A stretch of DNA of 64,000 nt from Blasia pusilla (lineage: Eukaryota). Both the position numbers and the translations under genes were made by a program. Below are positions 2,090 through 55,596 of this stretch, piece by piece. The stretch is from NCBI GenBank assembly GCA_050084515.1, contig CM114271.1, forward strand, positions 3,658,001-3,722,000. Direction: 5' to 3'. Each line of letters begins with the position of its first letter. Position 1 is the stretch's first letter. The notes under the pieces were generated by a model. The model had not been told where the DNA came from and searched no databases. It saw only the letters and a list, made by a program, of their open reading frames with translations.

Positions 2090-2403
2090 TATTGAAGATT
2101 GAGTTACAGTCAAACTCATAAGACACCTAAAGTGCTATATTTGGCACTCACACGAAGTAGGGAAGCTTAATCTTGGTTAGTCAGTAAAGCACAATTATCT
2201 TAACTAGGATTGGTTAATCACAGTTAGGCTAACTCGAGACTATGGTTAACAGTAGGGTTAGGGTTGCTTGTACATACCCTATATAATTGAGAAGAGGACC
2301 AGCCTACACTCATTCTCTCATTGCAAATTTTGTTCTTCATGGTGGTGTGTGTGTGTCTGAAAGCCGTTTTCCACCATTTATGCTTGTTTCGCAGTTTTCC
2401 ACA
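2090..2403 (+). repeat. 3' LTR of copia A (TATTG...CCACA, ~314 bp)
   Basis: Follows the PPT; homologous to 42458-42577 plus 51516-51713 and to 55400-55596; contains TATATAA. Confidence 0.9.
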
Positions 2404-2405
2404 AT

Positions 2406-3046
2406 TGTCGTGCGTATACACATCGCTACACAACATACATCGATGTTACTGAACACACACACAAACACGTACGATCCCATGCTAACCCATGGCATCCAAA
2501 CAACGAGACAAGAAGTACTAAAATATCTCTAATAAAGTAAGATCCAATCTCTCTCTACACCATCTCACACCATAACTCTCAAAGGTGTGCACTCTCTCTC
2601 TCTCTCTCTCATGTCAAACCAAACCCATTCTCCATCTGAGAGGCTTGGGTTACACTCACAAGGCAAGGGACCATAGCTCCTCCGCCTTATGCCAAGAGGT
2701 TTAACAAAGAGAGAATGAGCTCTCAAGCTTTCTCTCCTTCAGATATACCCCTCCCCTCTCCCAAGCTTTCTCCATGGTAACCTATTCTCCCAAGTCACCT
2801 CCTTGGCTCTGGACCTGATGTAGGAGGTCAAGGGTCACCTACCAAAAATATAAAGTCGATCATATACTCAAAATGGTACTTACCTAAAATAGTAAGTTTC
2901 TCAATATGGCTCAAAATGAGCCGAAACAAAGGGGAAACCTGTCAGAAGGTCATCCTCGACCTACTGAGCGTGTCCTCTACTACTCACAAAGGCGCTCTAC
3001 TAGATCTCACTGATATATCTCTAATAGATCTCTAAAATACGTGACA
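2406..3046 (+). repeat. ~640-bp TG...CA dispersed unit (solo-LTR-like), copy 1; first 127 bp equal the terminal repeat of the MTase retroelement
   Basis: Starts TGTCGTGCG, ends CGTGACA; aligns in reverse complement with 8459-9106 and more weakly with 55694-56350. Confidence 0.75.
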
Positions 3047-4049
3047 CATTAGGCACTATAGAGCTACACAACTTCATTGCGGAGTTTAGGAGTTTGTGTG
3101 ACTCACAACGCGCTAGGAACTCTAGAGAGTTCAACCCGTTTACAACATGGAACGGTATGTTTCAGCATTTAGAGGGGGCGCCCATGGACAATAACCATGA
3201 GTTCTCCCACAGATATACCCAGGAGATTGAGGCATGGTGACTCTACTATGACCCACACTATGTGTCATAGACGGAGCCGCTCCTAAATGAGGAGGAGGAG
3301 TCATGAGAGGCTACTTCCTCTTCCATTAGTGATGTTTTAGGAGGGGTCACTCACACTGAAGCAGTTGCACCATCTAGTTGGGTTCGTCCCACGTTCAACC
3401 CTGTGGTTCAGTTCTTTGTTGAGTTGAGGGAGGGGGTGCTTCTTATGAACACCTCCCCTACATTGAGAGATGTTTTTAGGACCGCCGAGAATATTGAGTG
3501 CAACATGGCAAAGGAGATCGTAGCCACCATGGGTTCTGGGCGAGAGCAGTCACGATTGTCTGCACCACTAGTGCAGCAATGTGGACTCCGAGATAGGTCG
3601 ACTGTGGCACCACGAGCTCACGGAGGATACTAGGCCGTGCCAGAGAGACATCCGCCTTCATATGCGGCTCAACAGCAGCCGCCTACGATTACTTGTTGGT
3701 CATGTGGTGGAGCCCATCATTAGTGCGATTGCACACGTAAGAGTCATGGACGTGTGCCTCAGCATGGCGGAGAAGATGGTGCTGCACCAAGAGGTTATCA
3801 GTGTGACTACTGTCAGAGGTATGTTCACACACGCGCCAAAAATTTTATTTTATATCGTGAGTTCTTGAGGTTGGGATGGTTGCTCAGATATAACAGCTAC
3901 AAGAGCAGATTGCCGTTATGGTTACCCGATGCTGGATGGCATCGGATCTTCGACGCTTAGCCACTGAGCATGTGCAGACCGCGTGGAGTGAGACATTTGC
4001 ACTAGAGTGTGACAGGTCAGAGGAACCCTAGGTAGGCAGGAGTGCTGCT

Positions 4050-5045
4050 ATGACCCCTTTGGACACCACCCCAATTGTGTGGTGCATACCAGAGCAGGGT
4101 ATTCGGGTGTTGGATCTCTTTGGAGGGATCAGCATTGGGTTAGCTGTTGTTTTGCACGCTGGAGTGCGCATACAACAATACCTATTTGTGGAGATTGATG
4201 ATATTGCAAGGCGCGCTTCACTTCACCATGTGGGGCTGTTACGCCTCCGTTTTCCCGACTTGTTGTCTACGTCCGCCATTCAGGGTTACCAGAGTTCCCT
4301 AGCGAGGGACATTTCATTGTTGGGGGCGCACGACTTGGAGCGGGTAGGGACCATAGACTTGGTCATTGCTGGTTGACCTTGTCAAGGCCAATCGAGTGCT
4401 GGACGAGGTAGCGGGTTAGTTGACACTCAGTCCATGTTGTTTTGGGAGATGATGCGGATCTTGCGACATTTACATGAGCATCAGCCTCATTCTCCATCTA
4501 CATTTTGGAGAATGTGCCGATTTTGGGCGATTCGAGGTCCTGCATGGTGACGAGTGCACATCATGTGCGCGCATGGATCGGCCTAGCAGTGTTTTTAGAT
4601 GCGGCGAGTGTAGGTTCTAGAGCACACCGCCCGCATCTTTGGTGGACCAACTTGGTACCACATGAGATGTTGCGGAGGGCTTATGCGAGAGTGGAGCGTC
4701 TCTCTGTGGGAGGATTCTATATTGGATCCGGGTCGTCGATCACAGGTAGTGAGGCACAATGGTCGACCGCCGTTGATTGTGGTCAACAGGATTGGCATGC
4801 CACGAGCAGCCTTTTCCACATTGGTGAGTTTTTCCACTTCCTATACATTCAAGGAGGCCGGACCTCGCTTGGTTTGGGATGACCATGTACAGAGGTTGGT
4901 GGAGCCCAACGCCGATGAGCGAGAGCGAGCGATGGGATTCCCCCACAGAAGTGACATTAGTACCGTCACTATCGAAGGCTTCACAACGTCATGTCTTGGA
5001 TCAGGCGATGAACCTGAACTGCTTGACATGGATTTTCAGCTTAGG
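4050..5045 (+). pseudogene. DNMT3-like C5 cytosine DNA methyltransferase domain in pol (disrupted)
   Basis: Motif I VLDLFGGIS, II FVEID, IV DLVIAG*PCQGQSSAG (PC codons 4377-4382), VI ENVP, VIII AHRPHLWWTN, IX ERERAMGFP, X RHVLDQAMNL. Confidence 0.9.
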
Positions 5046-5325
5046 AGTATTTGAGCGATGTCGTTTGAGGATACGACGGATCATAAAAGTTGCGTTGGTG
5101 AGCCCCATGCCTATCAAGGTGGCTGAGGCAATGGTTGGGGGCGAGACCCGAGGAGATCGACACACCAAGGGTGATCGGAAGAGACACCCTTGAACTTCTT
5201 GGGATGTTTTGCAGGTACGCTAGGAGATGATAGCCACAACATCGAGCGTGGTTTTGGGTACTGCACGTGGAGATGAGAGTTCTATTGTCCGAGATGGGGT
5301 TGCACCATAGCAACCACCGACATCC

Positions 5326-8147
5326 GTGTCAGAGAGTCCTACCGTAATCACGATGGAGACTTGGGAGCCAGATATGGGCCCTAAGTTAACAGGAGGAGAG
5401 CGGCGCCGGATACACCAAATCCTTAGGAGTTATAGGAGCTTTTTTGCATTTAGTATGCATGATTTGGCTACGCTGAAGGATTCAGGGATCCGCATTGAGT
5501 TTTTGAGTGACACACTGATCTTCCGACGACCCTACAGGTACACTCACATGGAGACGGCTCTAATTCAGAGTAAGAGCCATGACTTGGTTGGAGCAGGACT
5601 AGTGGAGATGTTGCATGCAGAGTATGCATCTGCCACTATCATGTCCGCCAAGAAGGATGTGCATGGCAATTGGACAGATAGGCGAATGTGTGGAGATTAC
5701 CAACCTATCAATATGCAGACGAAGCCCGATAGGTATGCCATGCCCACTCCTTAGGAGATCTTTGATGCGATTGGGCATGCAAAGGTCTTTAGTTCATTGG
5801 ATTTGCAAGCCGGAAACCATCAGCTACCTATCAGATTGGAGGACAGGCAAAAGAAGACATTTTGGGACATCGATCCTCACAAGAAGGATTGTTTGTACCC
5901 GTCGCCGTTCTTACCATTCGGGTTAAAGAATGCCCTGGTTGAGTTTAAGAGGGTCATGGATAAGATCTTGGCAGGTCTGGATTTTGCTAGGTATTATATT
6001 GATGACATCGTAGTCTTTAGCGCCACGGTTGAGGAGCATGAGCGACATCTAGAGGAGGTGTTTTGACGATTGCAATAACATGGGCTGAAGCTACATCCAG
6101 GCAAGTGCAAGTTCTTCTACGACCAGATTGAGTACTTGGATCATACGATATACCCAGGGGGCCATGGTGTGCAACAGACAAAGGTAGAGGCTATTTCACA
6201 CATTCCACACCCTACAGATGTGAGTCGAGTTCGTGCATTCATGGGATTGGAAAACTTCTATCGGCTGAGTGCGTCAAGGGTTTGATTTGATTTTGGCCGC
6301 TAACCTTGATGACCAAGGTGGATCGGGAGTGGCACTGGGAGGATGAGCAAGAGAGAGCATTTCACATGCTCAAGGACAGATTCACGTCCGCGCTCATATC
6401 GAGGAGACCAATCAAGGGGCGTCCTTTCCAGTTGCATACCGATTGGAGCATGTTGGGGCTTGGAGCTGTGCTCACCCAGCATGACGATGATGGTAGAGAG
6501 TTTGTGGTGGCTTACGCTAGTCGCTCGAACAACGCTGCAGAGGTGAAGTTTAGCTCGTATGAGGATGAATGCTTGGATGCAATGTGGGCTGTCGCACATT
6601 TCAGATGTTATCTATTCGGCAATCCCTTTACCATCATTACTGATCATGAGCCACTTAAGTGGTTCATGGAGTCCGACAAGCTTATAGGGGAGCTTGCAAG
6701 GTGGGATCTTTTGTTGTAGGAGTATCACTTCCAAGTGGTGCATAGACTTGGGACGCTCAACCATGATACACATGGTTTGAGCCATAACCCATGCCTGAGT
6801 CAGCGAGATACGACTGGAGCTCGTTGGCATGGTAAGAGTGATGAGGAGTTGGTGCCAGGATGGCTTGCGTCAGCCTATTTGGGCTTGTTGGCTATGGAGA
6901 GCCAGATTTTTTAGACTTCGATGGCGAGGTCTAATGGAGAGTCCTTAGATCCAGAGGCCGGTAAGGAGACGATAGTGGACGAGACATTCACGACGATGGA
7001 GTGGTCTTGGAGTACTTTTGTACTAGTAGCGTCACGAGCAAAGTGGATGCTAGAGAGCGGGATCAAATCCTACAACAAGCCAGACGGTTCCGGTGGGAGG
7101 GCACACATGTGTTGCGAGTGTCGGAGGATGGTAGAGTGCGTGTAGTGCCTCATGTCCACCAAGAGAGAGCACGTTTAGTGCGTCATGCCCACGAGAAGTT
7201 GGGTCATTTTGGAGTGAAGTGGACGTACAACTTGCTCCGCATTCAGTATTGGTGGCGAGGCATGCAGACTGACGTTCAACAATTTGTTGCCAGATGCATG
7301 GTGTGTGATCGAGTCCGAGCATCGTTCAATGCTCCGACTCCAAAGTTGTATCTTCTTCCGATCATGGATTTAGGTTATAGATGGAGTTTGGATTTTGCAA
7401 GACCTTTGCCTTTGATGGAGCGCCATAGTCGTTATGTGTTGGTGATGGTCGAGCACTTCTCGAAGTGGATAGAGTTGGTTGCATTGCGTGACAAAGCAAG
7501 TGAGGGAGTAGCGTATGCCTTCCTAGATCGAGTGTTGAGTCATAACGGCGCACCAGCTGAGGTGTTGACAAACCAGGGTATAGAGTTCCGCTGGGAGTTT
7601 CAAGCCTTGTGTGATCAGGCACTGATCAACCACCGCACTACTTTGCGAGATCATCTTGAGGCGGATGGACAAGCGGAGCGGGTTGTGAAGACGGTGAAGA
7701 GAGAACTACACAAGTATGGCTTGGAGAGAGGTCACCTAGGGGATTGGGACCTTCAATTGCCGTGGTTGGCGATGGGATACAGATTCAGCATGCACGCATC
7801 CTTAGTGTCTTTCTCACCGTACTTGTTGTTTTATGGCTGAGAGCCAGATTTACCTGCGGCCATTCGTCGAGATGTTGGTGAGGTGTTGAACCTTGATGAC
7901 CCTGATGTATGGATGCGAACATGTTCTCATAGGGCTGAGTTGTTTCGGAGAGTGATGCCCATGTTTGAGAACTTGGCGATTGCGCAACATCGGGATACCT
8001 TGAGGTTTGCGACTATTCGGGGAGGTGATTATCGACTCACTATCCGGAGTATGTGATGGATGTTCGAGAGGATGGCATATGGCATGTTTGACGCCATCTC
8101 TCTCTAGGGTTCCTCAGGGACGATGGATGTGTCCTAGATGTGCATAG
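5326..8147 (+). pseudogene. RT-RNase H-integrase-partial PHD region of copy 1
   Basis: ORF fragments 5326-5754, 5797-6066, 6306-6719, 7001-7840; HHCC and WSLDF...GQAER integrase core; ends [13 protein letters not shown]...WMCPRC. Confidence 0.9.
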
Positions 8148-8327
8148 AGTAGGTAGTTCTACATTCCGACTTGTGTCTGTGACATGGATGAAAAGAAGGC
8201 GACTAATGATGGGGCCACTTGAGCACCCGACCTTCTTGCTCTTAGCGTCCGAGAGATTTTGTCATGGTAGGTAGGGATAGATGGTTATCTGGAGTTAGAG
8301 GGACCTGACCACCAACTATGGGGGTGA

Positions 8328-8454
8328 TTGGAGATATTTTGGTACTTCTTGTCTCATTTTTTGGATGCCATGAGTTAACATGGGATCGTGCGTGTTTGTG
8401 TGTGTGTTCGGTGACAGCGATGTATGTTGTGTAGCGATGTGTATGCGCACGATA
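8328..8454 (+). repeat. 127-bp 3' terminal repeat of copy 1
   Basis: TTGGAGATATTTTGG...GCGCACGATA; same position after PHD stop as in copy 2; inverted relative to 2406-2532. Confidence 0.9.
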
Positions 8455-8458
8455 ACTA

Positions 8459-9106
8459 TGACATCTTTTAGGATAGATCGGTGAGATCTAGTAGAGCGTC
8501 TACGTGAGTAGTGGAGGACAGGCTCAGTAGGTCGAGGATGATCAGTTGAGGCCTCAGGAAACCTGAGAGAGCAGGTTTCCCCTTTGTTTCGGCTCATTTG
8601 GAGCCATATTGAGGAACTTACTATTTTAGGTAAGTACTATTTTGAGTATATATGATCGGCTTTCTATTTTTGGTAAGTAGCCCTAGATGTCCTACATGAG
8701 GTCAAGAGCCAAGGAGGTGACTTGGGAGCATATGTTACCATGGAGAGAGCTTGGGAGAGGGGAGGGGTATACCTCAAGGAAAGAGAGCTTGAGAGCTCAT
8801 TCTCTCTTTGTTGAACCTCTTGGCATGAGATGGCGGAGCTATGGTCTTGCTTGCCTTGTGTGTGTAATCCTAGCCTCTCATTAGGAGAGTGGGTTTGGTT
8901 TGACACTAAGAGAGACATCTGAGAGTGCACACATGTGAGAACTATGGTGTTGTGAGAGAGATTGGATCTTATTTTAATTGGAGATATTTTGGTACATCTT
9001 GTCTCGTTGTTTGGATGCCATGAGTTAGCATGGGATCGTGCGTGTTTGTGTGTGTGTGTTCGGTGACAGCGATGTATGTTGTGTAGCGATGTGTATGCGC
9101 ACGACA
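8459..9106 (-). repeat. ~650-bp TG...CA dispersed unit, copy 2 (inverted relative to 2406-3046)
   Basis: Reverse complement aligns along its whole length with 2406-3046; flanks ACTA/ACTG may be a 4-bp TSD with one mismatch. Confidence 0.8.
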
Positions 9107-9721
9107 ACTGAGATATTGGCCGAAAATGACTGTGAGAGCAATGGGGTTGAGGGCTAATTTGAGGGGCTTGGCTATCTTTCCCTATAGTTAGGGGAACCTC
9201 GGAGATTCCCAAAAGTACTAGTAAGGGAGGAGTCTCTCCAAGAAGTCTTGGAACACGAATCCCCACTTTGAGCATCAAACGGCGTCTCAAGGGCACGGGA
9301 TGGAACGGGGGTTTGGCGTTGGAACTCGAAACCCAAACCTGATCCAAGGGAGTGGACTTTGTACGCCACACTTGGATTCCGACCCATCTCTGATTTTGTG
9401 TGAGTCTCGGTTAGGGACTCATTAGAGGTCCATCGGACAGTTGGAACCGCCAGGCGCGAAACGCCGTTTGAGGTTCTTGAACCGACCAGAAAGTCTGTCC
9501 CAAGTCTTTCGAGACTTGCCTGTATTGTAAACCGTGAAACTAGGAAGGTTGAGCATTGATGAGAGGCCGAGACGAGAACTCGGAAAGTTAGCCCGCTGAT
9601 TGATCTAGATCCGACTAACCAGAGTGTGTGTTTGGATGCAGATCAGTGTTGAGAGCGTGAACTACTGAACACACGCTTTCGCAACAACAAAGATAAACGT
9701 TCAAGGAGAGTAGGCGCACGA
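9107..9721 (+). repeat. 3' part of an LTR homologous to solo LTR 62551-63564
   Basis: Shared blocks such as GTACTAGTAAGGG, CCCCACTTTG, AAGGGCAC, AAACCCAAACC, AGTAGGCGCA in the same order. Confidence 0.7.
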
Positions 9722-13871: not shown

Positions 13872-15891
13872 CCTCGCTGTCTGTCATTCCAGATTCTCCT
13901 TCCAGTTTTGCACCACGATTTCGTGACTAACCCCCGTCCGTCCCTCCCTCCCTCCTCTCCACCCCTCCACGCTCAGCAAACCGAAGCCATCACTGGGGAT
14001 AGCGTGAAATTATACACCTAGAACCTCAATCTCCTGCTTCAGGTGAAGGAGAAATATCAGCGCCCTACCCCAGGGACAAAAATCGATTCATCTTCAATAC
14101 AACCTCTCTCACTCTCCCCCCTCCATGTCTCTCTCCGTGCCATTTCAGCTGCAATCGCCACTGCCACTGCTCGCTCACCACCTCATCAACCCGTCACACT
14201 CGCGCAGAGTTGCGACAGCTACCATCGCAGAGTCGAATCGTTGCCATCTCCTCCGCAGCTGCCGAGCGCATGGACAACAAAACACTCCGGGCACGCCAGG
14301 AACTAAAGTGCCGACTTCTTCTTCACCAGCTAGGTAGTGCCTGCTCCGCTTCGCCTGTGCCCATTCCCCTCCCTAATTTTCTAAACACCTCCACCTCTCC
14401 TACAAACACCCCCTCAACTGCCGACTTACTTCTTCACTACTTTACCCCGACTTCGCCTGCTTCTCCTGTGCCCGTTCTCCTCCCTAATTCTCGTCACCTC
14501 CACCTCCCTCACCAGTCCGTCCACTCCTCTGCAGGTTCTTACACACGCACGCACAAACACTCCCGAACGCATGCACATAAGCGCGCGCACGCACTCACAC
14601 ACACTTCTCCCGTCCACAGGGGCAGTCACCGCGGTAACCTAAACGGCAAGCAGCGTCTCGTCATCGGCGCCTTGCACAGCAGAGACGGAAATGGATCCAT
14701 TGACTTCTGACAGTGATGCACAGTTGTGGCGTTAAAATTTCAACCACCTCGTCTGCATTGATTGGTGCGGGAACCTTTTTTTTTCATCCCCCCATTCGGC
14801 CCCAGATTCTCCTCCTGCTTCTCCTCTTCTCCTTCTCTCTTCCTCCTCCTCTCCGTCCGTGTCTATATGTGTGTGCTTGTGTATGTACACGTCTACCGAG
14901 CGAGCTGCTGTCTTCGTGGGGCTGACTGCTTCATGAGGCCCATTAAACTTTTATGGGACTCGGTCTCGCGGGCCGTCACAGGATCTGGATCAGATCGCAC
15001 CCGGTGCGCTGATGAGGAGGAGACAGATGGTTAGCACCCCCCGCTGATGGGCGGAGCCCGCTTCCTTCCTTCCTTCCTTCCTTCCTGCGGAACTTGCTTG
15101 TCGGGTTCCACTCGGCGTGCTTATGGACATCATCATCTCTCTATTTAGACAGCTTGGAATTTTAGATGCTGCTGACTGGGTAGACGCGGAAGCTCCTGAC
15201 GCACTCATTGACCGAGCTCGGCCTCCTTTTGCCTCTTCGCCTCTTTGCATGAGCTTTCTCCTGCAGACATCGGGACAAAAGCAGTTTAGGCCAACTTAGA
15301 TAGCAGCTTTCCTTGAAAGGCTGGCCTACTGAGCCCCAGTTGGAGTCTTCATGCGGTGGGACTTCGGGTTCGGGACGTTCCGGTGGTGCCCATGTTGAGG
15401 CGACTGCTACTGTCATCATAAACTCGGCATGCCGCTTCGTAAATGTATTCAACCCCCACAACCAAAACACGTTTACGCATCAAGTGGAACTTATGTCGCC
15501 ATGATGTTCCCCACCGCTGCGTAGTTCGTCTCCATCTGCGTCATTACCATCGGAGTTTCGTTGCCAGGTGCTTTCATTGCATACACCATTCAGCTCGTCA
15601 TCAGAAGGGCAGAACATGGAGACAGATGGGAATGCGAAGGGGAGAGAGACTAATCGGTTACGATTAATTTTATTGAAATGCGGATCGCCAAGAGCGGGAA
15701 CGAACCACTATCAATCATGATAGCTTTCGATGGGATCACCACCAACGACTGCTAACTAACGAATGGGTAATGTACACTACTCTGTATTTTACATGTATTT
15801 ACAACTCCTGTACAGTTGTGACGATTCAGGGCGGAGCGCGCCCACTACCTATCAATCAACTGCAGCATTGATTATTGGCCTAAATTATCTC

Positions 15892-38227: not shown

Positions 38228-40798
38228 ATAGGGCAAGTTAAGGGTCTAGGGTTGGATGTCATGGTCTGTCGAGACCGAGTTTTTCATATGGATAACATTA
38301 GAGTTCATTTTATCGGTAGACTACAGAGCCAGTCGAGATCGAGTTTTTCATACAAATAACAAAAGAATTCAATTTATTTGATTCTCCAATTAAGAGGGGC
38401 AGAAGATGTTGTATAATTGGATTTATAGGCTATGAGGGTTGCTAGGACGTTGGACATTTCTTGCCCCCAAAACTTTTGGGGGCATGAAATTTAGTGAGGC
38501 CCTAGGGTCAAGAGGACGTTACGTCCATGGGATGTACCCTCATAGGTCCTCTTTGGCAAGATAAGGTGGCGAATTTTAGTGCACTACTGTCCAACCTATA
38601 TAAAATAGATCGATAAACATGTTTGATTGGTTTGGAAAAAGAAAATATGCCACCCATGTTTTTAGGGTCCATGTAGTGTTTGAAAATGAAGAAGTCATCC
38701 TCCCTTAACAGTATGGATTTTGTCTATGGGTCCTAGCGAACAACAAATATTTGGAGGAGTTTTTTGAGATGGATATTAGGAATGGGTATTCTTTGTAAGG
38801 TCATCTTGTAAATCCGATGATTTTTTTAATTGGCGCAAAAATTGTTGAATGAAACATTGATATGGAGAAGCTAGTGTCTTTGTAAAAATTCAATTTTTAG
38901 AAAGTTAAGAAAACATTTCAGTGAGATAAATAGGTGTATGCCCTTGGTGGTTGCGAGTTTACATGCAACACGATGGGGTTGAGTGGCACTTAATGGGCTC
39001 GACGATGTTTAAAAGATGTCAATCGCTACGAGATGGCCCCCTCATAAGATGAATCTGTTTTGGGGTTCTAATTGAAGATTGGGCATACAAGAATTTGAAA
39101 ATTGGGCCAAAAAAAAATTCAACCATATAAAATATCGGTAAATATTCTTAATCCACATGATATCTATCAAATATTCCCTACTAGAAAATGAAATTATATG
39201 TAATATTCTCTTTCCCATGCTCACTGTTTTGCAAGCTCTCCACTAACTCTATTCAGAGCTTGTTGAGTGACAACTAACCCCTTAATATCCAAGACTTGGA
39301 GCATCTTGGAGAATAATGTAAATACCTTTTACACCAAGCTATCCAAAAAAGCTACTCAAAACAACTAAGTGGATGGCTTTTCTCATACGATATATATTAG
39401 CCTTGTGGCCCTCATAGTGTACCAGTAGGTACTCGAGGCTAACGATGGGAAGTTTTAATTACCCATCATTAGCCACTTACATTGCAATGATGGACCCCAA
39501 CTTACCTTGAATAGACACTCACGGTTGCCAAATTGAACTCTCCAAAATTGACTCTAAATTAGCCAAACACACCTGTCAAGACATGCTAAACACCCAACGA
39601 CGATCCTTGTGTAGCAACACCATAACTAGGACCAGAATAGGAAACCCCACATCAAAAGAGGAAACCACAACAAAACCACACGATGAAACAACCTCTAGCA
39701 ACGTTGGACGGTTGGCCTAGGACCCATGGAACTTTTCCATGGGGACCGTATCTTAAAGTACAAGCAACGAGTCTTTATCTCTTTACAATGTGCAAAGCTA
39801 TTGGGCTTAAGTGGTAAACTCATGGTGTAGACGACGCAATAGCTAGAGGTTCTCTTGTTGATAATCATGTTTCTTTCGATATCGCTTATATTATTTTTTA
39901 TGTTGGTGAGTTTGGATTTTACAAGATTCCTCATTTTTTCTTTGTCCCTTGTCGGGTTGGCCTTTGTGTTCCCTAGCTCTATAAGTCCCCCTCTTTCTAC
40001 TTCTGATGATTGCTCCCACCTTCTTTTATTCAACTTGTTATTTCTTCATTTTGCATATTCTTCTCATAACCTTTGTGAAGAAGTAATCTTCGTATATAAG
40101 CATAATTGCCAATAATCATACCGATAAACACTTCTCCTAAGTGTGGAGAAAAATAGTCAAATCTTGACTTATGTTTCAAGCAAAGAGGCTCTTGCAAATT
40201 ATAAAGCTTCACTTCATTACTAATATAAACAAGTGAGGTGACTATGCAATATATGGTCATTAGATTTTACTTTGTAAAATTTTCCATTGAAAAGTTAGCA
40301 TGTGTATAAATAAATATTAAATGTATAATAAAATTTTCATTTTATGTTATGAAATTACTGAAATTTTTGTTTATTTCATGTAAGAATCTCCTCATACAAA
40401 ACATTTTGCATGTAAATTACCCTCTTCCTTTGAATATAAGTTCATAAGGTAAGCATGTATTGGAAAGTTATATCCCATAGAGATAACTGAATCCTTATTC
40501 ACAATGGAGTCAAAAGTAACGTAAGTACATAGCATATAATTTTTACAAGATTTATATTTTGTCATTATTTTCAAGGATGAATTCATAAAATAATTCCACA
40601 CAAGCGAGAATAATATTTAATTCATCATCCTCACAAGAGACCATATATATGATCTCTTTAAAGTTTCTTGGATAATTTCCATGATAAAGAAGTCTTGACA
40701 AAATTTCTCACTAAAGATTATAAGTTTTCCCCCAAATGGTGAATCTATCAAGGCAAGAGATACCAATCCCATGATATCTTATGGAGTATAATTCACAA

Positions 40799-40800
<2 letters not shown>

Positions 40801-40859
<59 letters not shown>
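40801..40859. repeat. (GA)n microsatellite
   Basis: Read directly. Confidence 0.98.
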
Positions 40860-40862
<3 letters not shown>

Positions 40863-42577
40863 TATTCTACACGACCATATCATAATCTTGAAAGTTAATT
40901 AAGTCCAAAGATAGTATGGCATTCAAGAACAACAACTTAGGGGTTTTTGTAATTACGTGACTTAATTCATATAAGAGATCCTATTTGAGTGGAACAAAAA
41001 TTCAACTCCATAATCTAGTGGATCGAATAGTTTTATTTTAAGATTGAAGGGTGAAATGGGTCAATGGAGTTGAGAATCTCAACAAGTCTCATAAACTTAT
41101 TCGGAGCAGAAGAACACTTCACTATTGTCCTCAAGAAGTCCCAATTGAATAGAAACTTCTTAAAATTTTGATATAGCACTCCATCCAAAGTTCCCAAAAA
41201 TTCATATAAAGTTGCACCTCGAACACGATGAAAAAGAAATCACAACTAATGACATTCTCCATTGTTTATGAAGAAGTATAATCATTTAGTACACTCTATA
41301 ATGCGCTCTTCTACCCAATTCTTCATATCAAAGTTAAGTTTTTAAATTGAATATAATATAAGAGAATGGGATGTATATTATAGTGCAATCTGTACTAGAT
41401 TACCAATAGGATGATCGCAATATTTTCTTCTTCGTATCCTATGAGTTCATCTTTTATTATACCAACGATAATATGAAGGAAACTAGAGATATACATATCA
41501 ACAAGCAAGAGGAAATAATCAAATACTTGTAAACCACTATGTTATGGCGATCTCCTTGTTTCTCTGAATAACATCCTTAAGCGCCTCATCATTATTGAAG
41601 TAAGCTATTTAAATAAACTATTTGTGCCATTAGTAGATGAACGGCTAATCTCACGATACGTGGATATTTTACAAACAAATCAAATTTCAAAATTTTCCAA
41701 CATGCCTCACAAGAAGAAATATATCTCACGCAATAAAGGAAGAAGTTAGTACAAATAGAAATAAATAACGAATCTTTATGAAAATATTTTAAGAAATCCT
41801 TAGGAGAATCAAATCATCCAAAGATTCTTATATGCATATTCTATTAGTATTTTATAACAAAAAGAGTGTTGGTATCTTATACTAAAATCAAGGATAATAT
41901 ATATGATTAATATAAAATCAAGGATAATACATAAGGCATGATCCATCGATTAACAACTATTTTTCAAAAATATTTGTAAATATGGATAGGGAATTTCCTA
42001 TCCACATATGGAGCATTGAGATTTAATTCTCCACATAGACCATTAATTATGCAATTATCCATACTAAAATAAATTATAGGATCAATATTGGATCAAGAAT
42101 TTCAACATATGTTATATTATCATAATCAAAAGCAATATGTGATTTATCCCCGCATGCCAAAATAATCAAAATACGAACATATGGAAAGTCTCTTTTTTGA
42201 AAGTCCACCACATGGATGCATACCAAAATATTACCAAAAATATTTTTTTTTCTTCATGAGTGTTAAAATCCTCCTCGTCTCCTTTAGTTGACCAAACAAT
42301 AATGTTCGTGTAATCTCATGCCACTTAGGATTACATGTCATGGTAAAAAAGTAATAAAAGTTAGGAGTAGTAGTCACTTGGGATATGTATGGATAGAAAA
42401 AGTGCATATTTTCGGAAGAAAAGATTTAGATAGTTAGAAAAAAGAAAAGGTATACGGTATTGAAGATTGAGTTACAGTCAAGCTCATGAGACACCTGAAC
42501 TGCTACATTTGGTACTCACACGAAGTAGGGAAGCTTAATCTTGGTTAGTCAGTTAAGCGCAATTATCTTAACTAGGG

Positions 42578-42704
42578 TGTTGTGCGCATACACATCGCTA
42601 CACAACATACATCGTTGTCACCGAACACACACACAAACACGCACGATCCCATGCTAACTCATGGCATCCAAACAACAAGACAAGAAGTACCAAAATATCT
42701 CCAA
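42578..42704 (+). repeat. Terminal inverted repeat (3' end of copy 2)
   Basis: Reverse complement of 51389-51515, about 11 mismatches in 127 bp by manual alignment. Confidence 0.92.
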
Positions 42705-42884
42705 TCGCCTCCTTAGCTGGTGGTTAGGTCCCTCTAACTCCAGAGAGCCATCTATCCCTACCTACCGTGATATACATCTCTCGGACGCTAAGAGCAAGAA
42801 GGCCAGTGCTCATGTGGTCCCATCATTAGTCGCCTTCTTGTCATCCATGTCACAGACATAAGTCAGAATGTATAAGTACCTACT

Positions 42885-43211
42885 CTATATACATCTGGGA
42901 CACATCCATTGTACATGAGGAACCCTAATGAGAGGTGGCGTCAAACATGCCATATGCCATCCTCTTGAACATCCATCACAGACTAGCATAGTGGCTGCAC
43001 CACGGACAGAACCACACAACATACACCGCAAGCTTGTAGGAACTATTGCTAAGCTCGGATCAACTGTACCATCAATGTTAGGAAGGTGACATGGCGCACA
43101 ATTACGCACGTGGTTCTTCCATACCATACCATCGCGTCCCTCCAGCAAGAGAACACCGGATGGCAAAACGTCACGCACTCTCAAGATAGTGCGCCATGCA
43201 GTCACATCCAA
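42885..43211 (-). pseudogene. Integrase C-terminal extension with PHD finger
   Basis: C4HC3: CMLC...[29 protein letters not shown]; in frame with integrase across a TAG at 43251. Confidence 0.92.
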
Positions 43212-43250
43212 CGTCGTCGGTGCCGTCTACTGCAAGTAGACATAATCTCC

Positions 43251-45790
43251 CTAATGAAACCTCCGGATAGTTGGTCGATAACTACCACCCCGAATAGTCG
43301 CATACCTCAACGTATCCCGATGCTGCGCGATCGCCAAGTTCTCGAACGTCATGGGCATCACTCTTCGAAACAACTCAGTCCTTTGAGAACATGCTCGCAT
43401 CCATACATCTGGGTCATCAAGGTCCAGGACCTCACCAACATCTCGATGAATGGCCGCAGGTAAATCTGGCTCTCGGCCATAAAGTAGCAAGTACGGTGAA
43501 AAAGACGCTAAGGATGCTTGCCTGCTGAATCTATATCCCATCGCCAACCACGGCAACTGGAGGTCCCAATCTCCTAGGTGACCTCTCTGCAAGCCATACT
43601 TGCGTAAACCCCTCTTCATCGTCTGCACAATTCTCTCCGCTAATCCATCCGCCTCGGGATGATCTCGCGAAGTCATGCGGTGGTCGATCAGCGCCTGATC
43701 ACACAAGGCCTGGAACTCACCGTGAAACTCGGTACCCTGGTCTGTCAACATCTTAACTGGTGCGCCATAATGACTCAGCACTCTGTCAAGGAAGGCATAA
43801 GCTACTCCCTCACTCGCTTTGTCAGGCAATGCAACCAACTCGATCCACTTCGAGAAGTGCTCAACCATCACCAACACATAACGACTGTGACACTCGGTCA
43901 AAGGCAAAGGTCCTGAAAAATCCAAACTCCATCTATACCCTAAGCGCATGATCGGTAATGGATACAATTTTGGAGTTGGAGCATTGAACGATGCTCGGAC
44001 TCGATCACACACCATGCACTTGGAAACAAATAACTCAACGTCAATCTGCATGCCTTGCCACCAATACTGAATCTGGAGCAAGTTGTACGTCTGCTTCACC
44101 CTAAAGTGACTCAACTCCTTGTGGGCATGCTGCACTAGTGGTGCTCTCTGTGAAGGATTCGGCACTACGCGTACTCTATCATCCTCCCAAACCCTCAAAA
44201 CATGTATCCCCTCCCAACGGAACCGTCTGGCCCGCTGTAGGATCCAATCCTGCTCTCTAGCACCCACGATTTCCGCAACGCTACCAGTATGAAGGAACTC
44301 CAAGACTACTCCATCATCATTAATATCTCGACCACCTATCGTCTCCTCACTGGCCTCGAGATCCAAGGACTCTCCACTAGACCTCGCCATCGAAGTCTCC
44401 ACACTCTGGCTCTCCATGGCCAACATGGCTAAATAGGCTGACTTGTGCCATTCTGGCACTGACTCCTCATCACTCTCTCTATGCCATCGAGCTCCAGTCG
44501 CATCTTGCTGGCTCGGGCATGGGTTACGACTCAACCCATCTGCATCTTGGTTGAGCATCCCAAGTCTATGTACCACCTGAAAATCATACTCCTGCAACAA
44601 TAGAGCCCATCTCGCAAGCTTCCCTGTAAGCTTGTTGGACTTCATCAACCACTTTAGTGGTTGATGATCAGTGATGATGGTAAAGGGGTTGCCGAATAAG
44701 TAACACCTCAAAATACGCGACAACCCACACTGCAGCCAAGCACTCACCCTCAAATGAGCTATACTTCGCCTCTGCAGTGTTGTTCGAGCGTCTAGCGTAA
44801 GCCACCACGAACTCTCTACCCTCATCATCATGTTGGGTGAGCACTGCTCCAAGCCCCAACATGCTCCAATCTGTGTGCAATTGGAAAGGACGCCCCTGAT
44901 CGGTCTCCTCAAGATGGGCGCGGACGTCAACCTATCCTTGAGCAAGTGAAATGCTCGCTCCAGCTCATCCCCCCAGTTCCACTTGTGATCTACCTTGGTC
45001 AGCAAGGTTAGCGGCTTCGCAATCGAACTGAATCCCTTGACGTACCGCCGATAGAAATTCGCCAATCCCATGAATGCGCGAACATGGCTCACGTTTGTAG
45101 GGCATGGAATGCGTGAGATAGCCTCTATCTTCATCTGCTAAACACCAAGGCCCCTTGGGTATATCGTATGACCCAAGTACTCAATCTGGTCATAGAAGAA
45201 CTTGCACTTGCCTCGATGTAGCTTCAGCCCATGTAGTTGCAATCGTCAAAACACCTCCTCAAAATGTCGCTCATGCTCCTCAATCGTGGCGGGAAAGACT
45301 ACAATGTCATCAATATAACACCTAGCGAAATCCAGACCAGCCAAGATCCTATCCATGACCCTCTGAAACTCATCCGAGGCGTTCTTTAACCCAAATGGTA
45401 AGAATGGCCACTAGAACAAACAATCCTTCCCGTGAGGATCGATGCCCCAAAATGCCGTCTTTTTCCTGTCCTCCAATTTGATAGGCAGTTGATGGTATTT
45501 GGCTCGCAAATCCAATGAACCAAAGACCTTTGCGTGACCAATCGCATCAAAGATCTCCTCAAGGATGGGCATGGCATACCTGTCGGACTTCGTCTGCCGA
45601 TTGATAGGTCGGTAATCCCCACACATCCGCCTATCCGTCCAGCTGCCATGCACATCCTTCTTGGTAGGCATGACAGTGGCTGATGCTTACTCCCCATGTG
45701 ACACCTCCAGTAGTCTTGCTCCGACCAAGTCCTGGCTCCTACTCTAAATCAGATCTCTCTCCATATCACTGTACCTGTAGGGTCGTCACT
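43251..45790 (-). pseudogene. RT, RNase H and integrase of copy 2
   Basis: RMCGDYRPINRQT, CYIDDIVVF, HTDWS..LGAVL, TDHQPL, HHCC, D(WSLDF)-D(LTDQG)-E(GLAER); several stops and frameshifts. Confidence 0.93.
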
Positions 45791-46284
45791 CGACAACTCA
45801 ATTCGGATCCCCGGTCCCTTCAGCGTACCCAAATCCTCCATGTTAAACGCAAAGCAGCTCCTATAACTCGTGAGGAACTGATGTATCCGGCGCCGCTCTC
45901 CTCCTGTCAACTTAGGGCCCATATCTGGCTCCCAAGTCTCCATCGTGACTACGATAGGACTCTCCGGTGCATATCGGGGGTTGCTTATGTGCAACCCCGT
46001 CTCGAACAATAACACTCGGCCGCTCTCCTCCAGCCAACTGCAAACTCTGATCTCCTCCACATGCACTGTCTAGAACCACGCTCGATGATGTGGCTATCAT
46101 CTCATGGCATACCTGCAAAACATCCCAAGAAGTCCAAGGGTGTCTCTCCCGATCTCCCCTAGTGTGTCGATCTCCTTGGGAGTTGCCCCCAGCCACTGCC
46201 TCCACCGTCTCGATAGACATGGGGCTCACCAACGCAACCGTTGTGATCTGTCGCGATCTCATACGACGTTGCTCCGCCACTTCC

Positions 46285-47280
46285 AAGCTGAGGATCCATG
46301 TCAAGCAGTTCAGGTCCATCGCCTGACCCAAGACATGGCGTCGTGATGCCTCTGACAGTGACGGTACTGCCGTCATTCCTATGGGAAATCCCATGGCTTG
46401 CTCTCTCTTTTCGGCGTTGGGCTCCACCAACCGCTGAACCTGGTTATCCCAAACCAAGCCAGGACCGGCCTTTTTGTATGCATAAGAAGCGGGAAAACTC
46501 ACAAACGTGGGCAAGGCTGCCCGCGGGCTGCCTACCCTATTGACCACAGTCAACGGTGGTCGATCATTGTGCCTCACTGCCTGTGATCGACAACCTGGAT
46601 CCAGAATGGAATCCACTAACAAATGGGAGGGGCGGTCCACTCTCCCATACGCCCTCCGTAACACCGCATGGGGCATCAAGTTGGTCCATCATAGATGTGG
46701 GCAATGGGCTCTAGAACCTACACTCGCCGCATCTAAGAATACTGTTGGGCCGATCCAGGCACGCACCTGATGAACACTCGTCACCACCTGTGACCTGAAG
46801 TCTCCTAAGATTGGCACATTCTCCTGAATGTAGGCTGGAGAACGAGACTGGTGCTCCTGCAACTGCCGTAAGACCCTCAACATCTCCCAAAACAACGTGG
46901 ATTGATTGTCAGCCAACCCACTGCCTCGTCCAGCACTCGATTGGCCCTCACATGGCCAACCGGAAATGACCAAATCAATGGTCCCTACCCGCTCTAAGTT
47001 CTCGCCCAAAGAACGTAAATACCCTCGTAAGGAAGCGTGGTATCCTGCATCATGGACGCTTGCATAATAGGTCAGGAAAACGTAGGCGTAACTGCGCCAC
47101 ATGTCGTAGTGAGATGCGCCTTGCAACATCATCACTCTCCACATACACGTAGTGCTGCACTCGTAATCCTACTTGCAAAATAGCAGCTAACCCGGTGCTA
47201 ATCCCTCCAAAGAGATCTAACACTCGAATACCCTCCTCGAGAATACACCACATAATGGGTGTGGTATCCAAGGGTGTCAT
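46285..47280 (-). pseudogene. DNMT3-like C5 cytosine DNA methyltransferase domain of copy 2 (disrupted)
   Basis: VLDLFGGIS; YVESD; DLVISGWPCEGQSSAG (PC codons 46950-46955); QENVP; AHCPHL*WTN; EKREQAMGFP; RRHVLGQAMDL. Confidence 0.92.
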
Positions 47281-50325: not shown

Positions 50326-51388
50326 AGAAGGAGAGGTGGTCTCTCACTTGGAGACCCTTGAAACCTCGCATCACTCCGAGTAAACCCTCTAGAGCTACTC
50401 TGAGGTCCACTACCTCGCCTCTCAAAATCCTAAAAGGACGTCGTGATGGCCCTCGTGCCCCTCTCACATGATCACTCTCAACCTCGTGAGTAATCTCTCA
50501 ATCACTCATCCCAAACATCGGCACTCGATCTACACTCTCCCTCCACGAGACGTGTAACAAGCGGCAACAAGCCGCGTGGTGCGGAAAATCGATCAGGCTA
50601 TCATCTCATAGACAACCTACCCTCAACTCTGGGCATCCCACACAGGTCTATGTCCCCTAAACCACATACATAAATAATGCTCTCAGCATCCACACAACCC
50701 AATATCCCCAAATAAACTACCCAAATCCTAGAATCCCTCACGCGTGCAGGGTAAAGGACCAGAATGGATAACCTGAATACACGTCGATGTCACTCCTCAG
50801 CAACAGCAAATCTCGACCCTAACTCGGTCATGGAGACAACTCCTCCAATCAGCAAGTCATACTCCTCCCGTACTGACGTTGCTCAAAACTCCTTGATAGA
50901 CAGTGCGACTCCAACGGAACGATGCGACGTTGCAGGCGGCACGGAAAGGCTACGAACCGCACGGCCGTCGATGGTGGGATGCGCCACTCGGCGGCATACC
51001 CTCCTCAATCAACAATAAACCCACACTCTCCTCCACAATGACGGTGCGGTGCGGCCATAAGCGGCAATCGGCGGCGCGTTGCGGCTACGAGCGTCACAAC
51101 ACAGTACTCGATCGTCGTCAAACGACTACCAATCACAACATAGCATCATGAAATCAAAACTCAAACACCATAATTGAAGGTCATCTGCCATCACTGGTTG
51201 ATGACAAAACTGTGATGACGGTGGCGGCCAAAACAAAGTATGTGGTGGCGACGCAAGTCAGAGAATCATCGAACATCGTGGAAGATCCTCCACTCCGTAA
51301 CGGCGGCAATGCCAACCAAAGGGTGGACAACGGAAGGTGGATCGTTGACGGTGACGGTTGACTGTTGATGGTGACGTTGACGGTTGAA

Positions 51389-51515
51389 TTGGAGATATTT
51401 TGGTACTTCTTGTCTCGTTGTTTGGATGCCATGAAATAGCATGGGATCGTGCATGTTTGTGTGTGTGTTTGGTAACAGCAATGTATGTTGTGTAGCGATG
51501 TGTACGCGCACGATA
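51389..51515 (-). repeat. Terminal inverted repeat (5' end of copy 2)
   Basis: Reverse complement of 42578-42704; ORF track shows MASKQ.DKKYQNISN on opposite strands at the two ends. Confidence 0.92.
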
Positions 51516-51713
51516 TGGTTAATCACAATTAGTCTAACTCAATACTATCATTAGGGTTAGGGTTAGGCTATGTCCCATAGGCTATGTCCTATGGGACATA
51601 GCCTATGGGACCAACCTCCACTCATTCTCTCATTGCAAGTTTTGTTCTCCATGGTAATGTGTGAGTGTGAGAGTCGTTTCCCACCAGTTATGCTTCTTTA
51701 GCAATTTCCCACA

Positions 51714-55200: not shown

Positions 55201-55399
55201 CTAGCTAATAACCCTGTGTTTCATGCTCGTACAAAGCATGTTAAGATGCACTATCATTTTATCAGAGAGAAAGTGCTTGCAGGAGAAATTGATCTTGTGT
55301 ATATAGGTACAGATCAGCAAATTGCTGACATCTTTACAAAGACATTGTCTATAGATAAGTTTGAGATGTTTAGAAATGATTTAGCGTTAGAGATATCGA
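52245..55399 (+). pseudogene. Copia B gag-pol remnant (protease and most of RT deleted)
   Basis: KLDKQNYNVWKFRMK gag start, CNYCGIKGHYANFC knuckle, LRCDGGGGY...TPQQNGVA integrase, RT 3' end, FTDVDWAG...IADIFTK RNase H. Confidence 0.9.
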
Positions 55400-55596
55400 C
55401 TAGGGTTAGTTAATCACAGTTAGTCTAACTCGAGACTATGGTTAAGGTTAGGGTTAGGGTTGCTTGTACATACCCTATATAATTGAGAAGGGGACCAGCC
55501 TCCACTCATTCTCTCATTGCAAATTTTGTTCTCCATTGTGGTGTGTGAGTATGAGAGCCGTTTCCGACCAATTATGCTTCTTTAGAAATTTTCACA
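55400..55596 (+). repeat. 3' LTR of copia B, lacking PPT and first ~110 bp
   Basis: Comparison with 2061-2403. Confidence 0.85.

What the first reader, a model, noticed from the sequence alone, without database searches (positions are those of the whole stretch)
42885..43025. PHD finger fused to the integrase C-terminus: a reader-plus-writer pair on one retroelement
Seen: intact C4HC3 PHD in copy 2 and its second half in copy 1 (8049-8147). Known: chromoviruses carry a chromodomain at this position to guide integration, and animal DNMT3 couples its MTase to the PHD-like ADD domain that reads unmethylated H3K4. Inference: the MLVCD pattern with no evident aromatic cage suggests an unmodified-H3 reader. 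It could steer integration, and perhaps methylation, to silent chromatin.
Basis: partly seen in the sequence, partly recalled or inferred. Interest (0 to 1): 0.7.

Follow-up and report, generated by a model that had tools for sequence, protein, structure and literature searches.

The report
PHD finger on a retrotransposon integrase
A real, conserved PHD zinc finger sits at the very end of the integrase of a jumping gene that also carries a DNA methyltransferase; it is probably a chromatin-targeting device of a kind already known, and both copies here are dead.

Summary
Window 42885-43025 (minus strand) encodes a complete C4HC3 PHD finger (Pfam PF00628, E 9.3e-11). It lies in the integrase frame of a decayed Ty3/gypsy-type element whose pol reads Dnmt3-like methyltransferase, RT, RNase H, integrase, PHD. 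Copy 1 keeps only the second half of the finger, after a deletion. In 119 of 120 listed database relatives the PHD is in one ORF with the integrase, and it is under purifying selection. No relative carries a chromodomain. Its nearest solved relatives by sequence and by fold are cage-less PHDs solved with unmodified H3 tails (KDM5A/B PHD1, BHC80, ATXR5, BAZ2A, UHRF1). No H3K4me3 reader appears among them. The likeliest role is tethering the intasome to H3 tails to choose integration sites, as chromodomains do in chromoviruses. Two cautions apply. The window's own sub-lineage lacks the acidic residues that contact K4 and T3 in KDM5B, so K4me0 specificity is unproven. The methyltransferase lies far from the PHD, and in a separate ORF in an intact relative, so ADD-DNMT3-style coupling is unlikely. 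A Dnmt3-like domain occurs in 75 of 122 relatives, in two different positions. PHD-bearing algal Gypsy elements and Gypsy-DNMT3 elements are both published, but I found no paper discussing the pairing.

The parts
42885..43025 (-). PHD finger (C4HC3), last domain of pol, plus the stop codon (copy 2)
   Evidence: Translation; Pfam PF00628 E 9.3e-11; AF2 model block pLDDT 77-91 over this part; Foldseek PHD hits
43026..43226 (-). Integrase C-terminal SH3-like beta domain and a low-confidence linker to the PHD
   Evidence: Three strands at residues 16-39 of P0001; block pLDDT 55-56 over residues 41-60; conserved in 26 relatives
43227..43253 (-). Two in-frame TAG stops that break integrase from PHD in this decayed copy
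43254..45137 (-). RNase H (part) and integrase: H2C2 zinc domain about 43992-44159, DDE core about 43656-43940
   Evidence: Pfam PF17917, PF17921, PF00665
45140..45785 (-). Reverse transcriptase region, same frame, with in-frame stops
   Evidence: tblastn of P0014 and P0122; translation
45915..47241 (-). Dnmt3-like C5 cytosine methyltransferase domain (motif IV PC and motif VI ENV visible)
   Evidence: Pfam PF00145 E 3.5e-9; best PDB match DNMT3A catalytic domain E 4.9e-5; tblastn
42578..42705 (.). 3' terminal repeat A' of copy 2, inverted relative to 51388-51515
   Evidence: 124 nt, 93% complementary
51388..51515 (.). 5' terminal repeat A of copy 2
2400..9110 (+). Copy 1 of the same family. 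Left repeat 2400-3032; DNMT about 4092-5012; RT 5350-6264; RNase H 6297-6824; integrase 6983-8047; half PHD 8049-8147; internal repeat A' 8327-8460; right inverted repeat 8460-9110

Best explanation
The segment encodes the C-terminal PHD finger of the integrase of a Ty3/gypsy-type retroelement. By architecture the element resembles the published streptophyte Gypsy-DNMT3 elements. SHOWN: the finger is real. It is the last domain of pol, joined by a low-confidence (probably flexible) linker to the integrase SH3-like C-terminal domain. It is conserved and under purifying selection across a large green-algal lineage. It belongs by sequence and fold to the cage-less PHD class. Both window copies are pseudogenes, while relatives in the same organism are transcribed. 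INFERRED: after pol processing the finger stays on integrase and binds the N-terminal tail of histone H3. It would use the retained R2-binding Asp after C3, the beta-strand M-L-V and the Trp before C7. This tethers the intasome to nucleosomes that are not H3K4-trimethylated and biases integration toward silent, repeat-rich chromatin. The role would match that of the chromodomain in chromoviruses. The Dnmt3-like domain is a separate module of the polyprotein. Any cooperation with the PHD would operate at the level of the element, not within one polypeptide.
For: Pfam PHD E 9.3e-11, in frame with integrase. PHD and integrase share one ORF in 119 of 120 listed relatives, and none of the 120 has a chromodomain. 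C4HC3 regex matches 116 of 120. Intact locus L001 has ORF2 = RT-RH-IN-PHD, 1047 aa. All eight Zn ligands and the Trp before C7 are invariant in 27 aligned sequences. dN/dS between L001 and L002 is 0.038 over 666 codons and 0.094 over the 45 PHD codons, with dS 0.61. Nearest solved sequences are CHD4 PHD2, KDM5B/A PHD1, Lid, KMT2D, KAT6A, DPF3, PHF12, PHF21A/BHC80, ATXR5, AIRE, BAZ2A/B and UHRF1; none of the best 60 shown is named ING, BPTF or TAF3. Foldseek PHD-only matches have rmsd 1.3-2.8 A: BHC80 2puy, ATXR5-H3 5vab, BAZ2A-unmodified H3K4 4q6f, and UHRF1-unmodified H3 3zvy, which is the 2.8 A match. The KDM5B contacts D328 (H3R2), L324-326 and W351 map to D84, M80-V82 and W107 of the window finger. 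The residue two before His is Gly in 111 of 117 family fingers, so there is no cage Trp. Stranded RNA reads from the same species label cover every bin from DNMT to PHD at 85-95% likeness, with first mates on the plus strand at 25-255 versus 0-18 on the minus strand. Copy 2 sits inside, and copy 1 abuts, a Copia-family repeat.
Against: No binding data exist. No histone sequence was available for a complex prediction. In the window finger and its 12 closest relatives, the positions matching KDM5B E321 (H3T3) and its acidic neighbours carry G, A, T, R, K or P and none is acidic. The D308 (H3K4) position is T in the window and acidic in only 2 of the 12 closest relatives. The other deep clade keeps an acidic patch: D or E in 66 of 90 at C3-8. 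Specificity for K4me0 is therefore doubtful in this sub-lineage. The insertion-site evidence is two old copies, confounded by selection after insertion. The target-site duplication was not resolved. The placement of the cage Trp in H3K4me3 readers comes from my recall, not from a call.
Confidence: 0.6

Rival explanations
1. The finger binds the H3 N-terminus (A1 and R2) but is blind to K4 methylation, or reads another feature such as R2 or K9 state or an H3-like N-terminus of a non-histone protein. UHRF1 and CHD4 PHDs behave this way. Targeting would then not be toward K4me0 chromatin specifically.
For: The R2 Asp, the beta strand and the Trp are retained while the acidic K4 and T3 contacts are absent in the window sub-lineage. 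UHRF1 PHD (including its PAF15 complex 6iiw) and CHD4 PHD2-H3K9me3 (2l75) are among the closest folds.
Against: Most of the family keeps an acidic patch typical of K4me0 readers: D or E in 66 of 90 at C3-8 in the other clade. No direct data exist either way.
Confidence: 0.2
2. Reader-writer coupling. The PHD guides or gates the element's own Dnmt3-like enzyme so that methylation is laid on K4me0 chromatin, as ADD does in animal DNMT3.
For: A Dnmt3-like domain was found by BLASTP in 75 of 122 family proteins, in both deep clades. In the larger clade it lies directly N-terminal of integrase-PHD: RT-RH-DNMT-IN-PHD in 52 ORFs that contain RT.
Against: In the window's clade the DNMT lies between protease and RT, about 1300 aa from the PHD. 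In L001 it is in ORF1, separated from ORF2 by a TAG. A nested subclade (P0062, P0063, P0074, P0119) keeps the PHD; in the three that contain RT (P0062, P0063, P0119) no DNMT-like domain was found, and P0074 has no RT in its ORF and is less informative. The finger is a canonical PHD, not an ADD. Yeast assays of the KnitGypsy-Dnmt3 domain detected no methylation, which the authors called inconclusive (PMC5890265 section 10).
Confidence: 0.1
3. The finger is not a chromatin reader. It could be a structural zinc module of the intasome, or a docking site for a host or element protein such as a nuclear import or capsid factor.
For: Nothing specific. PHD folds can bind non-histone partners: a UHRF1 PHD-PAF15 entry is among the hits.
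Against: Sequence and fold neighbours are overwhelmingly histone-tail readers. The H3-contact residues D84 and W107 are conserved family-wide: Asp after C3 in 107 of 117 and Trp in 110 of 117.
Confidence: 0.08
4. Chance ORF, or a host PHD exon lying next to a transposon.
For: None.
Against: Same frame as integrase, present in both copies, and fused in more than 100 intact relatives.
Confidence: 0.01

Closest known systems
KnitGypsy-Dnmt3 of Klebsormidium nitens (de Mendoza et al. 2018, PMC5890265; read: section 9, section 10, passages, one supplement file)
   Same: Gypsy domain set with a Dnmt3-type methyltransferase inside pol, combined with a DIRS-like repeat arrangement. Copy 1 shows inverted 630-bp terminal repeats plus an internal copy of the tip.
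   Different: The words PHD, finger and reader are absent from the paper's main text and from the one held supplement. The figure is not held, so the domain may be drawn there. The window's organism is not known to me.
Chromoviruses (Ty3/gypsy with a C-terminal integrase chromodomain; Gao et al. 2008, as cited in bioRxiv 10.1101/2021.11.30.470311, passages)
   Same: A histone-reader module at the same place, after the integrase C-terminal domain. The proposed role in integration targeting is the same.
   Different: Different fold and ligand class (PHD versus chromodomain). No chromodomain occurs in any of the 120 listed relatives.
PHD-bearing green-algal transposons (REM1 and Gypsy-7a_cRei of Chlamydomonas; PMC8557442 and PMC9940879, passages)
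   Same: Gypsy elements of green algae that carry a PHD finger as an accessory domain. Named relatives here come from Haematococcus, Pleodorina and Tetrabaena.
   Different: The REM1 paper is not held, so domain position and relatedness are untested. No methyltransferase appears in the Gypsy-7a_cRei legend.
KDM5A/B PHD1, BHC80/PHF21A, ATXR5, BAZ2A and UHRF1 PHD fingers
   Same: Best sequence matches (E 1e-11 to 1e-7) and best fold matches. They share the Asp after C3, the hydrophobic strand and the Trp before C7.
   Different: The window sub-lineage lacks the acidic K4 and T3 contacts described for KDM5B PHD1 (PMC4225485, passages).
ADD domain of animal DNMT3
   Same: A reader of the H3 tail present in the same genetic unit as a Dnmt3-type enzyme.
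   Different: The window finger is not an ADD. It is not adjacent to the methyltransferase, and in L001 it is in another ORF. The properties of ADD are recalled, not taken from a call.
EpiLTRs (chromodomain + DAM + DNMT retrotransposons; bioRxiv 10.64898/2026.05.21.726589, passages)
   Same: LTR retrotransposons that combine DNA methyltransferase(s) with a chromatin reader.
   Different: That preprint lists streptophyte Gypsy-DNMT3 as a separate acquisition and does not mention a PHD on it.

Membership tests
PHD finger (Pfam PF00628) | C4HC3 zinc-ligand pattern with canonical spacing | tested here: met
   All eight ligands are invariant in 27 sequences.
PHD finger (Pfam PF00628) | Profile score above the curated cut-off | tested here: met
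   42 bits against a cut-off of 24, E 9.3e-11.
PHD finger (Pfam PF00628) | PHD fold | tested here: met
   AF2 block pLDDT 77-91 over the finger. Foldseek rmsd 1.3-2.8 A to solved PHDs.
H3K4me3-reading PHD (ING/BPTF type) | Aromatic cage including a Trp two residues before the His (position recalled from memory) | tested here: not met
   Gly at that position in the window and in 111 of 117 family fingers. None of the best 60 shown PDB sequence hits is named ING, BPTF or TAF3.
Unmodified-H3K4 (K4me0) reading PHD (KDM5B PHD1 / BHC80 type) | Asp after C3 pairing with H3R2; hydrophobic strand; Trp lining the A1 pocket | tested here: met
   D84, M80-V82 and W107 map to KDM5B D328, L324-326 and W351.
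Unmodified-H3K4 (K4me0) reading PHD (KDM5B PHD1 / BHC80 type) | Acidic side chain(s) contacting the K4 ammonium and T3 (KDM5B D308, E321) | tested here: not met
   T64 and A77 in the window. The 12 closest relatives have no acid at the E321-equivalent positions. The feature is met in the other deep clade.
Unmodified-H3K4 (K4me0) reading PHD (KDM5B PHD1 / BHC80 type) | Measured preference for K4me0 peptide | not testable with these tools
   Needs ITC or a peptide array.
Ty3/gypsy integrase | H2C2 zinc domain plus DDE core, downstream of RT and RNase H | tested here: met
   PF17921, PF00665 and PF17917 in order. A family profile matches Ty3 Gag-Pol 7q5b at E 3.2e-29.
Chromovirus | Chromodomain at the integrase C-terminus | tested here: not met
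   No PF00385 in the window ORFs or in the 120 precomputed domain lists.
Streptophyte Gypsy-DNMT3 (KnitGypsy-Dnmt3) | Dnmt3-type methyltransferase in the pol frame of a Gypsy element | tested here: met
   One frame runs from DNMT to PHD in copy 2. The best PDB match is DNMT3A.
Streptophyte Gypsy-DNMT3 (KnitGypsy-Dnmt3) | DIRS-like repeat arrangement | tested here: met
   Copy 1 has inverted terminal repeats plus an internal complementary copy. Copy 2 keeps only 124-128-nt inverted ends.
Streptophyte Gypsy-DNMT3 (KnitGypsy-Dnmt3) | Sequence relatedness to the published elements | not testable with these tools
   The published sequences are not held. The nearest named relative is a Coleochaete scutata transcript.
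DNMT3 ADD-type reader-writer fusion | Reader domain adjacent to the methyltransferase in one mature polypeptide | tested here: not met
   DNMT at 1380-1481 and PHD at 2765-2808 in P0161. They are in different ORFs in L001. Maturation itself was not tested.

The most novel reading that the evidence does not exclude
An ancient Ty3/gypsy lineage spread through green algae (streptophyte and chlorophyte) has kept an H3-tail PHD reader on its integrase together with a Dnmt3-like writer through at least one domain reshuffle. The writer sits before RT in one clade and between RNase H and integrase in the other. The two modules would form an element-level loop: the PHD sends new copies into H3K4-unmethylated chromatin, and the methyltransferase marks the cDNA or the landing site so that it stays in that state. 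The larger clade may add a third module, an adenine-methyltransferase-like tail after the PHD.
Probability: 0.2. Interest if true: 0.7.

Novelty: new variant of a known kind. Interest (0 to 1): 0.45.

Why it matters
Retroelements that carry their own chromatin readers and DNA-modifying enzymes show how genomic parasites navigate and edit host epigenomes. Chromodomain targeting is the textbook case, and DNMT-bearing elements were reported in 2018. This analysis shows that the streptophyte-type Gypsy-DNMT3 architecture also ends in a conserved PHD finger. It also shows that PHD and a Dnmt3-like domain travel together in 75 of 122 sampled relatives across green algae. That provides a natural system for two questions: whether integration targeting and self-methylation cooperate, and what a PHD with a non-acidic K4 pocket reads. 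The window copies themselves are dead and add no new mechanism.

Tried and rejected
No whole genome is held for the window, so copy counts and insertion-site statistics in the host could not be made.

Earlier-findings look-ups returned nothing.

Alternative genetic code: I asked whether the in-frame TAGs are sense codons. The 13 internal stops of copy 2 are a mix of 6 TAG, 4 TGA and 3 TAA, so I read this as decay.

Target-site duplication: the alignment of flanks against uninterrupted Copia copies was ambiguous.

Foldseek's best E-values were to PHF1 Tudor-PHD entries, but at rmsd about 10 A over 103 columns. I did not read these as a domain-arrangement match.

The run index listed no RNA holder. 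Raw RNA reads were laid instead.

The PDB profile search with the IN-PHD-tail alignment showed only integrase and PHD hits among the best 60. It therefore gave nothing on the tail.

Literature: the REM1 paper is not held. One search was too broad to be useful. One search with five required terms found 0 papers. The PDF supplements of PMC5890265 and its Fig. 4c could not be seen and may show the PHD.

Full report
**Observation**

The minus-strand ORF 42885-43226 ends in a complete C4HC3 finger. Pfam PF00628 matches it end to end at E 9.3e-11 and 42 bits, against a cut-off of 24. It lies in the same frame as the upstream 628-aa ORF 43251-45137, which carries the RNase H, integrase zinc-binding and integrase core domains. 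Two TAG codons eight codons apart separate the two ORFs.

A second copy lies on the plus strand. Self-BLAST aligns 3944-8049 with 47386-43261 at 82% identity, and 8038-8450 with 42993-42582 at 90%. Copy 1 therefore lacks about 270 bp, which covered the integrase C-terminal part and the first half of the finger. The remaining half at 8049-8147 reads from the residue before C3 to the stop, in a different frame from its integrase.

**The element**

In copy 2 a single frame runs from a C5 methyltransferase domain to the PHD stop. Along it lie the methyltransferase (Pfam PF00145, E 3.5e-9), RT, RNase H, integrase and the PHD. The frame is broken by 13 in-frame stops (6 TAG, 4 TGA, 3 TAA) and no frameshift was detected: tblastn matches stay in one frame. 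I read this as decay, not as an alternative genetic code. Copy 1 has stops, frameshifts and the deletion.

The methyltransferase is closest to the DNMT3A catalytic domain among solved structures (E 4.9e-5).

Copy 1 is bounded by 630-bp inverted repeats (2400-3032 and 8460-9110). An extra internal copy of the tip lies at 8327-8460. Copy 2 keeps only 124-128-nt inverted ends.

Gypsy domains, a Dnmt3-type enzyme and DIRS-like repeats are the combination described for KnitGypsy-Dnmt3 of Klebsormidium nitens (PMC5890265, section 9). I could not compare sequences, and the window's organism is not known to me.

**Relatives**

A search with the integrase-PHD read-through (X at the two stops) found 257 proteins at E <= 1e-5 among 8000 scored candidates. 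Of the 120 listed:
- 119 carry PF00628 together with integrase domains, covering 94-100% of the query.
- None carries a chromodomain.
- 12 carry PF00145.

A C4HC3 regex finds the finger in 116 of the 120.

Named sources are Haematococcus, Pleodorina and Tetrabaena. One of the closest hits, P0006 at 67% identity, is a Coleochaete scutata transcript.

The intact locus L001 is 68% identical over the PHD region. Its ORF1 carries protease and DNMT and ends in TAG. ORF2 follows in the same frame with RT, RNase H, integrase and the PHD, 1047 aa in all. The full-length relative P0161 (2811 aa) reads protease 1004-1095, DNMT 1380-1481, RT 1845-2008, RNase H 2072-2201, integrase 2384-2552 and PHD 2765-2808.

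**Selection and expression**

L001 and L002 differ at dS 0.61 but dN 0.023. This gives dN/dS of 0.038 over 666 codons and 0.094 over the 45 PHD codons (one pair only).

RNA reads from two runs with the same species label cover all 30 bins from DNMT to the terminal repeat. First mates lie on the plus strand at depth 25-255 and on the minus strand at 0-18. If the libraries are of the usual stranded type, this means sense transcripts. Only 2 of 4136 and 6 of 4458 laid reads are at least 99% alike to the window, so the RNA comes from relatives and not from this dead copy.

Reads that run past 42578 continue into sequence that, by eye, matches the reverse complement of copy 1's right repeat. Copy 2 therefore appears to have lost that repeat.

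**What kind of PHD**

The nearest solved sequences are CHD4 PHD2, KDM5B and KDM5A PHD1, Lid, KMT2D, KAT6A, DPF3, PHF12, PHF21A/BHC80, ATXR5, AIRE, BAZ2A/B and UHRF1. There are 65 distinct sequences at E <= 1e-3.

An AlphaFold model built on 27 sequences has block pLDDT of 77-91 over the finger and 55-56 over the preceding linker. Foldseek aligns the finger at 1.3-2.8 A to BHC80, ATXR5-H3, BAZ2A-unmodified H3K4, DPF3, MOZ, CHD4/5, and at 2.8 A to UHRF1-unmodified H3.

I mapped the finger onto the KDM5B PHD1-H3K4me0 structure paper (PMC4225485, passages) through the printed alignment:
- Retained: D328 (H3R2), the L324-326 strand and W351, as D84, M80-V82 and W107.
- Not retained: D308 (K4) is T64 and E321 (T3) is A77.

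Across the family, the Asp after C3 is present in 107 of 117 fingers, the Trp in 110 of 117, and Gly two residues before the His in 111 of 117. The acidic patch before the M-L-L strand is common in the larger clade: D or E in 66 of 90 at C3-8. It is absent from the window and its 12 closest relatives, which carry G, A, T, R, K or P there.

'No aromatic cage' is therefore supported, with the cage position taken from my recall. 'Binds an H3-like N-terminus' is plausible. 'Specific for K4me0' is open for this sub-lineage.

**Reader plus writer**

BLASTP with the family's own DNMT segments finds the domain in 75 of 122 family proteins:
- 52 have it between RNase H and integrase.
- 19 truncated ORFs have it just before integrase.
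- 4 have it before RT.

Of the 47 without a match, 24 are terminal-PHD ORFs that start at most 217 aa before RT. They cannot show an upstream DNMT, and L001 explains them by its in-frame stop.

A tree of the integrase-PHD region (123 rows, quick IQ-TREE, midpoint root for drawing only) splits into two groups with SH-aLRT 96:
- 29 rows with a terminal PHD. This group includes the window, and the DNMT lies before RT in all 5 informative rows.
- 94 rows in which 34-502 further residues follow the PHD (4 of the 94 did not match the C4HC3 regex, so their tails were not measured). The DNMT lies between RNase H and integrase in 71 of them.

A nested subclade (P0062, P0063, P0074, P0119) keeps the PHD; in the three that contain RT no DNMT-like domain was found.

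The pairing is therefore old and widespread, but the PHD is the more constant partner and is tied to integrase. In the window's clade the two modules are far apart, or in separate ORFs. The published yeast assay of the KnitGypsy-Dnmt3 domain detected no methylation, which its authors called inconclusive. I rate direct ADD-like coupling as unlikely.

**Insertion context**

Copy 2 interrupts a Copia-family repeat. Its flanks 42457-42576 and 51516-51713 match 2089-2208 and 2211-2403. Copy 1 abuts another copy of that repeat at 2399/2400. This fits landing in repeats, but it rests on two old copies.

**Literature**

- PHD fingers on transposons, including Chlamydomonas Gypsy elements, are published (passages of PMC8557442, PMC9940879 and PMC6673714).
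- PHD and chromodomain co-occurrence with RT and integrase domains is reported across eukaryotes (bioRxiv 10.1101/2021.11.30.470311, passages).
- A 2026 preprint lists streptophyte Gypsy-DNMT3 among TE-borne DNMTs and describes chromodomain-DAM-DNMT 'EpiLTRs'. It has no passage on a PHD in Gypsy-DNMT3.
- The main text of PMC5890265 does not contain 'PHD', 'finger' or 'reader', nor does its one held supplement contain 'PHD'. Its figures and PDF supplements were not visible.
- Searches found no paper discussing the PHD-DNMT3 pairing.

**Verdict**

This is a real and correctly located feature. It is a member of a known kind of device, a chromatin reader on an LTR-retrotransposon integrase, sitting on a known kind of element (Gypsy-DNMT3). 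The new points are the conserved pairing across green algae, the two domain orders, and the non-acidic pocket of this sub-lineage.

Noticed in passing
window 2400-3032, 8327-8460, 8460-9110: Copy 1 has DIRS-like architecture: 630-bp inverted terminal repeats plus an internal copy of the outer 130 bp next to the right repeat. Yet it encodes a DDE integrase, not a tyrosine recombinase. How such ends are made by reverse transcription and joined by an integrase is unclear.
   Followed up: partly
L001 3489-3491: In an intact relative, ORF1 (protease-DNMT) and ORF2 (RT-RH-IN-PHD) share one frame, separated by a single TAG. Ten of the closest database ORFs start 88-154 aa before RT. This suggests a conserved stop and programmed read-through.
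   Followed up: partly
P0051 residues about 750-937 (relatives with a tail after the PHD): In the larger clade, 34-502 residues follow the PHD in the rows where the finger matched the regex. The ESM Atlas structure rows resemble phage adenine-specific DNA methyltransferases (TM by row 0.71-0.74, feature scores 0.86-0.87, so a lead only). Pfam gives weak MethyltransfD12 hits in 2 of 6 proteins (E 0.03-0.18). This may be a third epigenetic module.
   Followed up: partly
window 42457-42576 and 51516-51713; 88-2399; 53982-55593: There are three copies of one Copia-family repeat. Copy 2 of the PHD element is inserted into one of them, and copy 1 begins exactly where another ends.
   Followed up: partly
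window 45689-45914 (minus strand): Seven of the 13 in-frame stops of copy 2 cluster in the 80 codons between the DNMT and RT. No frameshift was detected across 4.3 kb.
   Followed up: no
window 8038-8450 versus 42582-42993: The 3' end (half PHD, 3' untranslated part, terminal repeat) is 90% identical between the two copies, against 82% for the 4.1-kb coding part. This hints at recombination or gene conversion between copies.
   Followed up: no
window 19379-27367 (minus strand): A 2662-aa open frame with no Pfam match, internal repeats of about 70-74% identity and strong GC and AT skew.
   Followed up: no
window 13329-13883 (minus strand): An ORF with a RING-H2 finger (PF13639, E 4.9e-14), probably part of a host gene.
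   Followed up: no
window 40001-42000: A stretch of 30% G+C, against 45-53% in the neighbouring elements.
   Followed up: no
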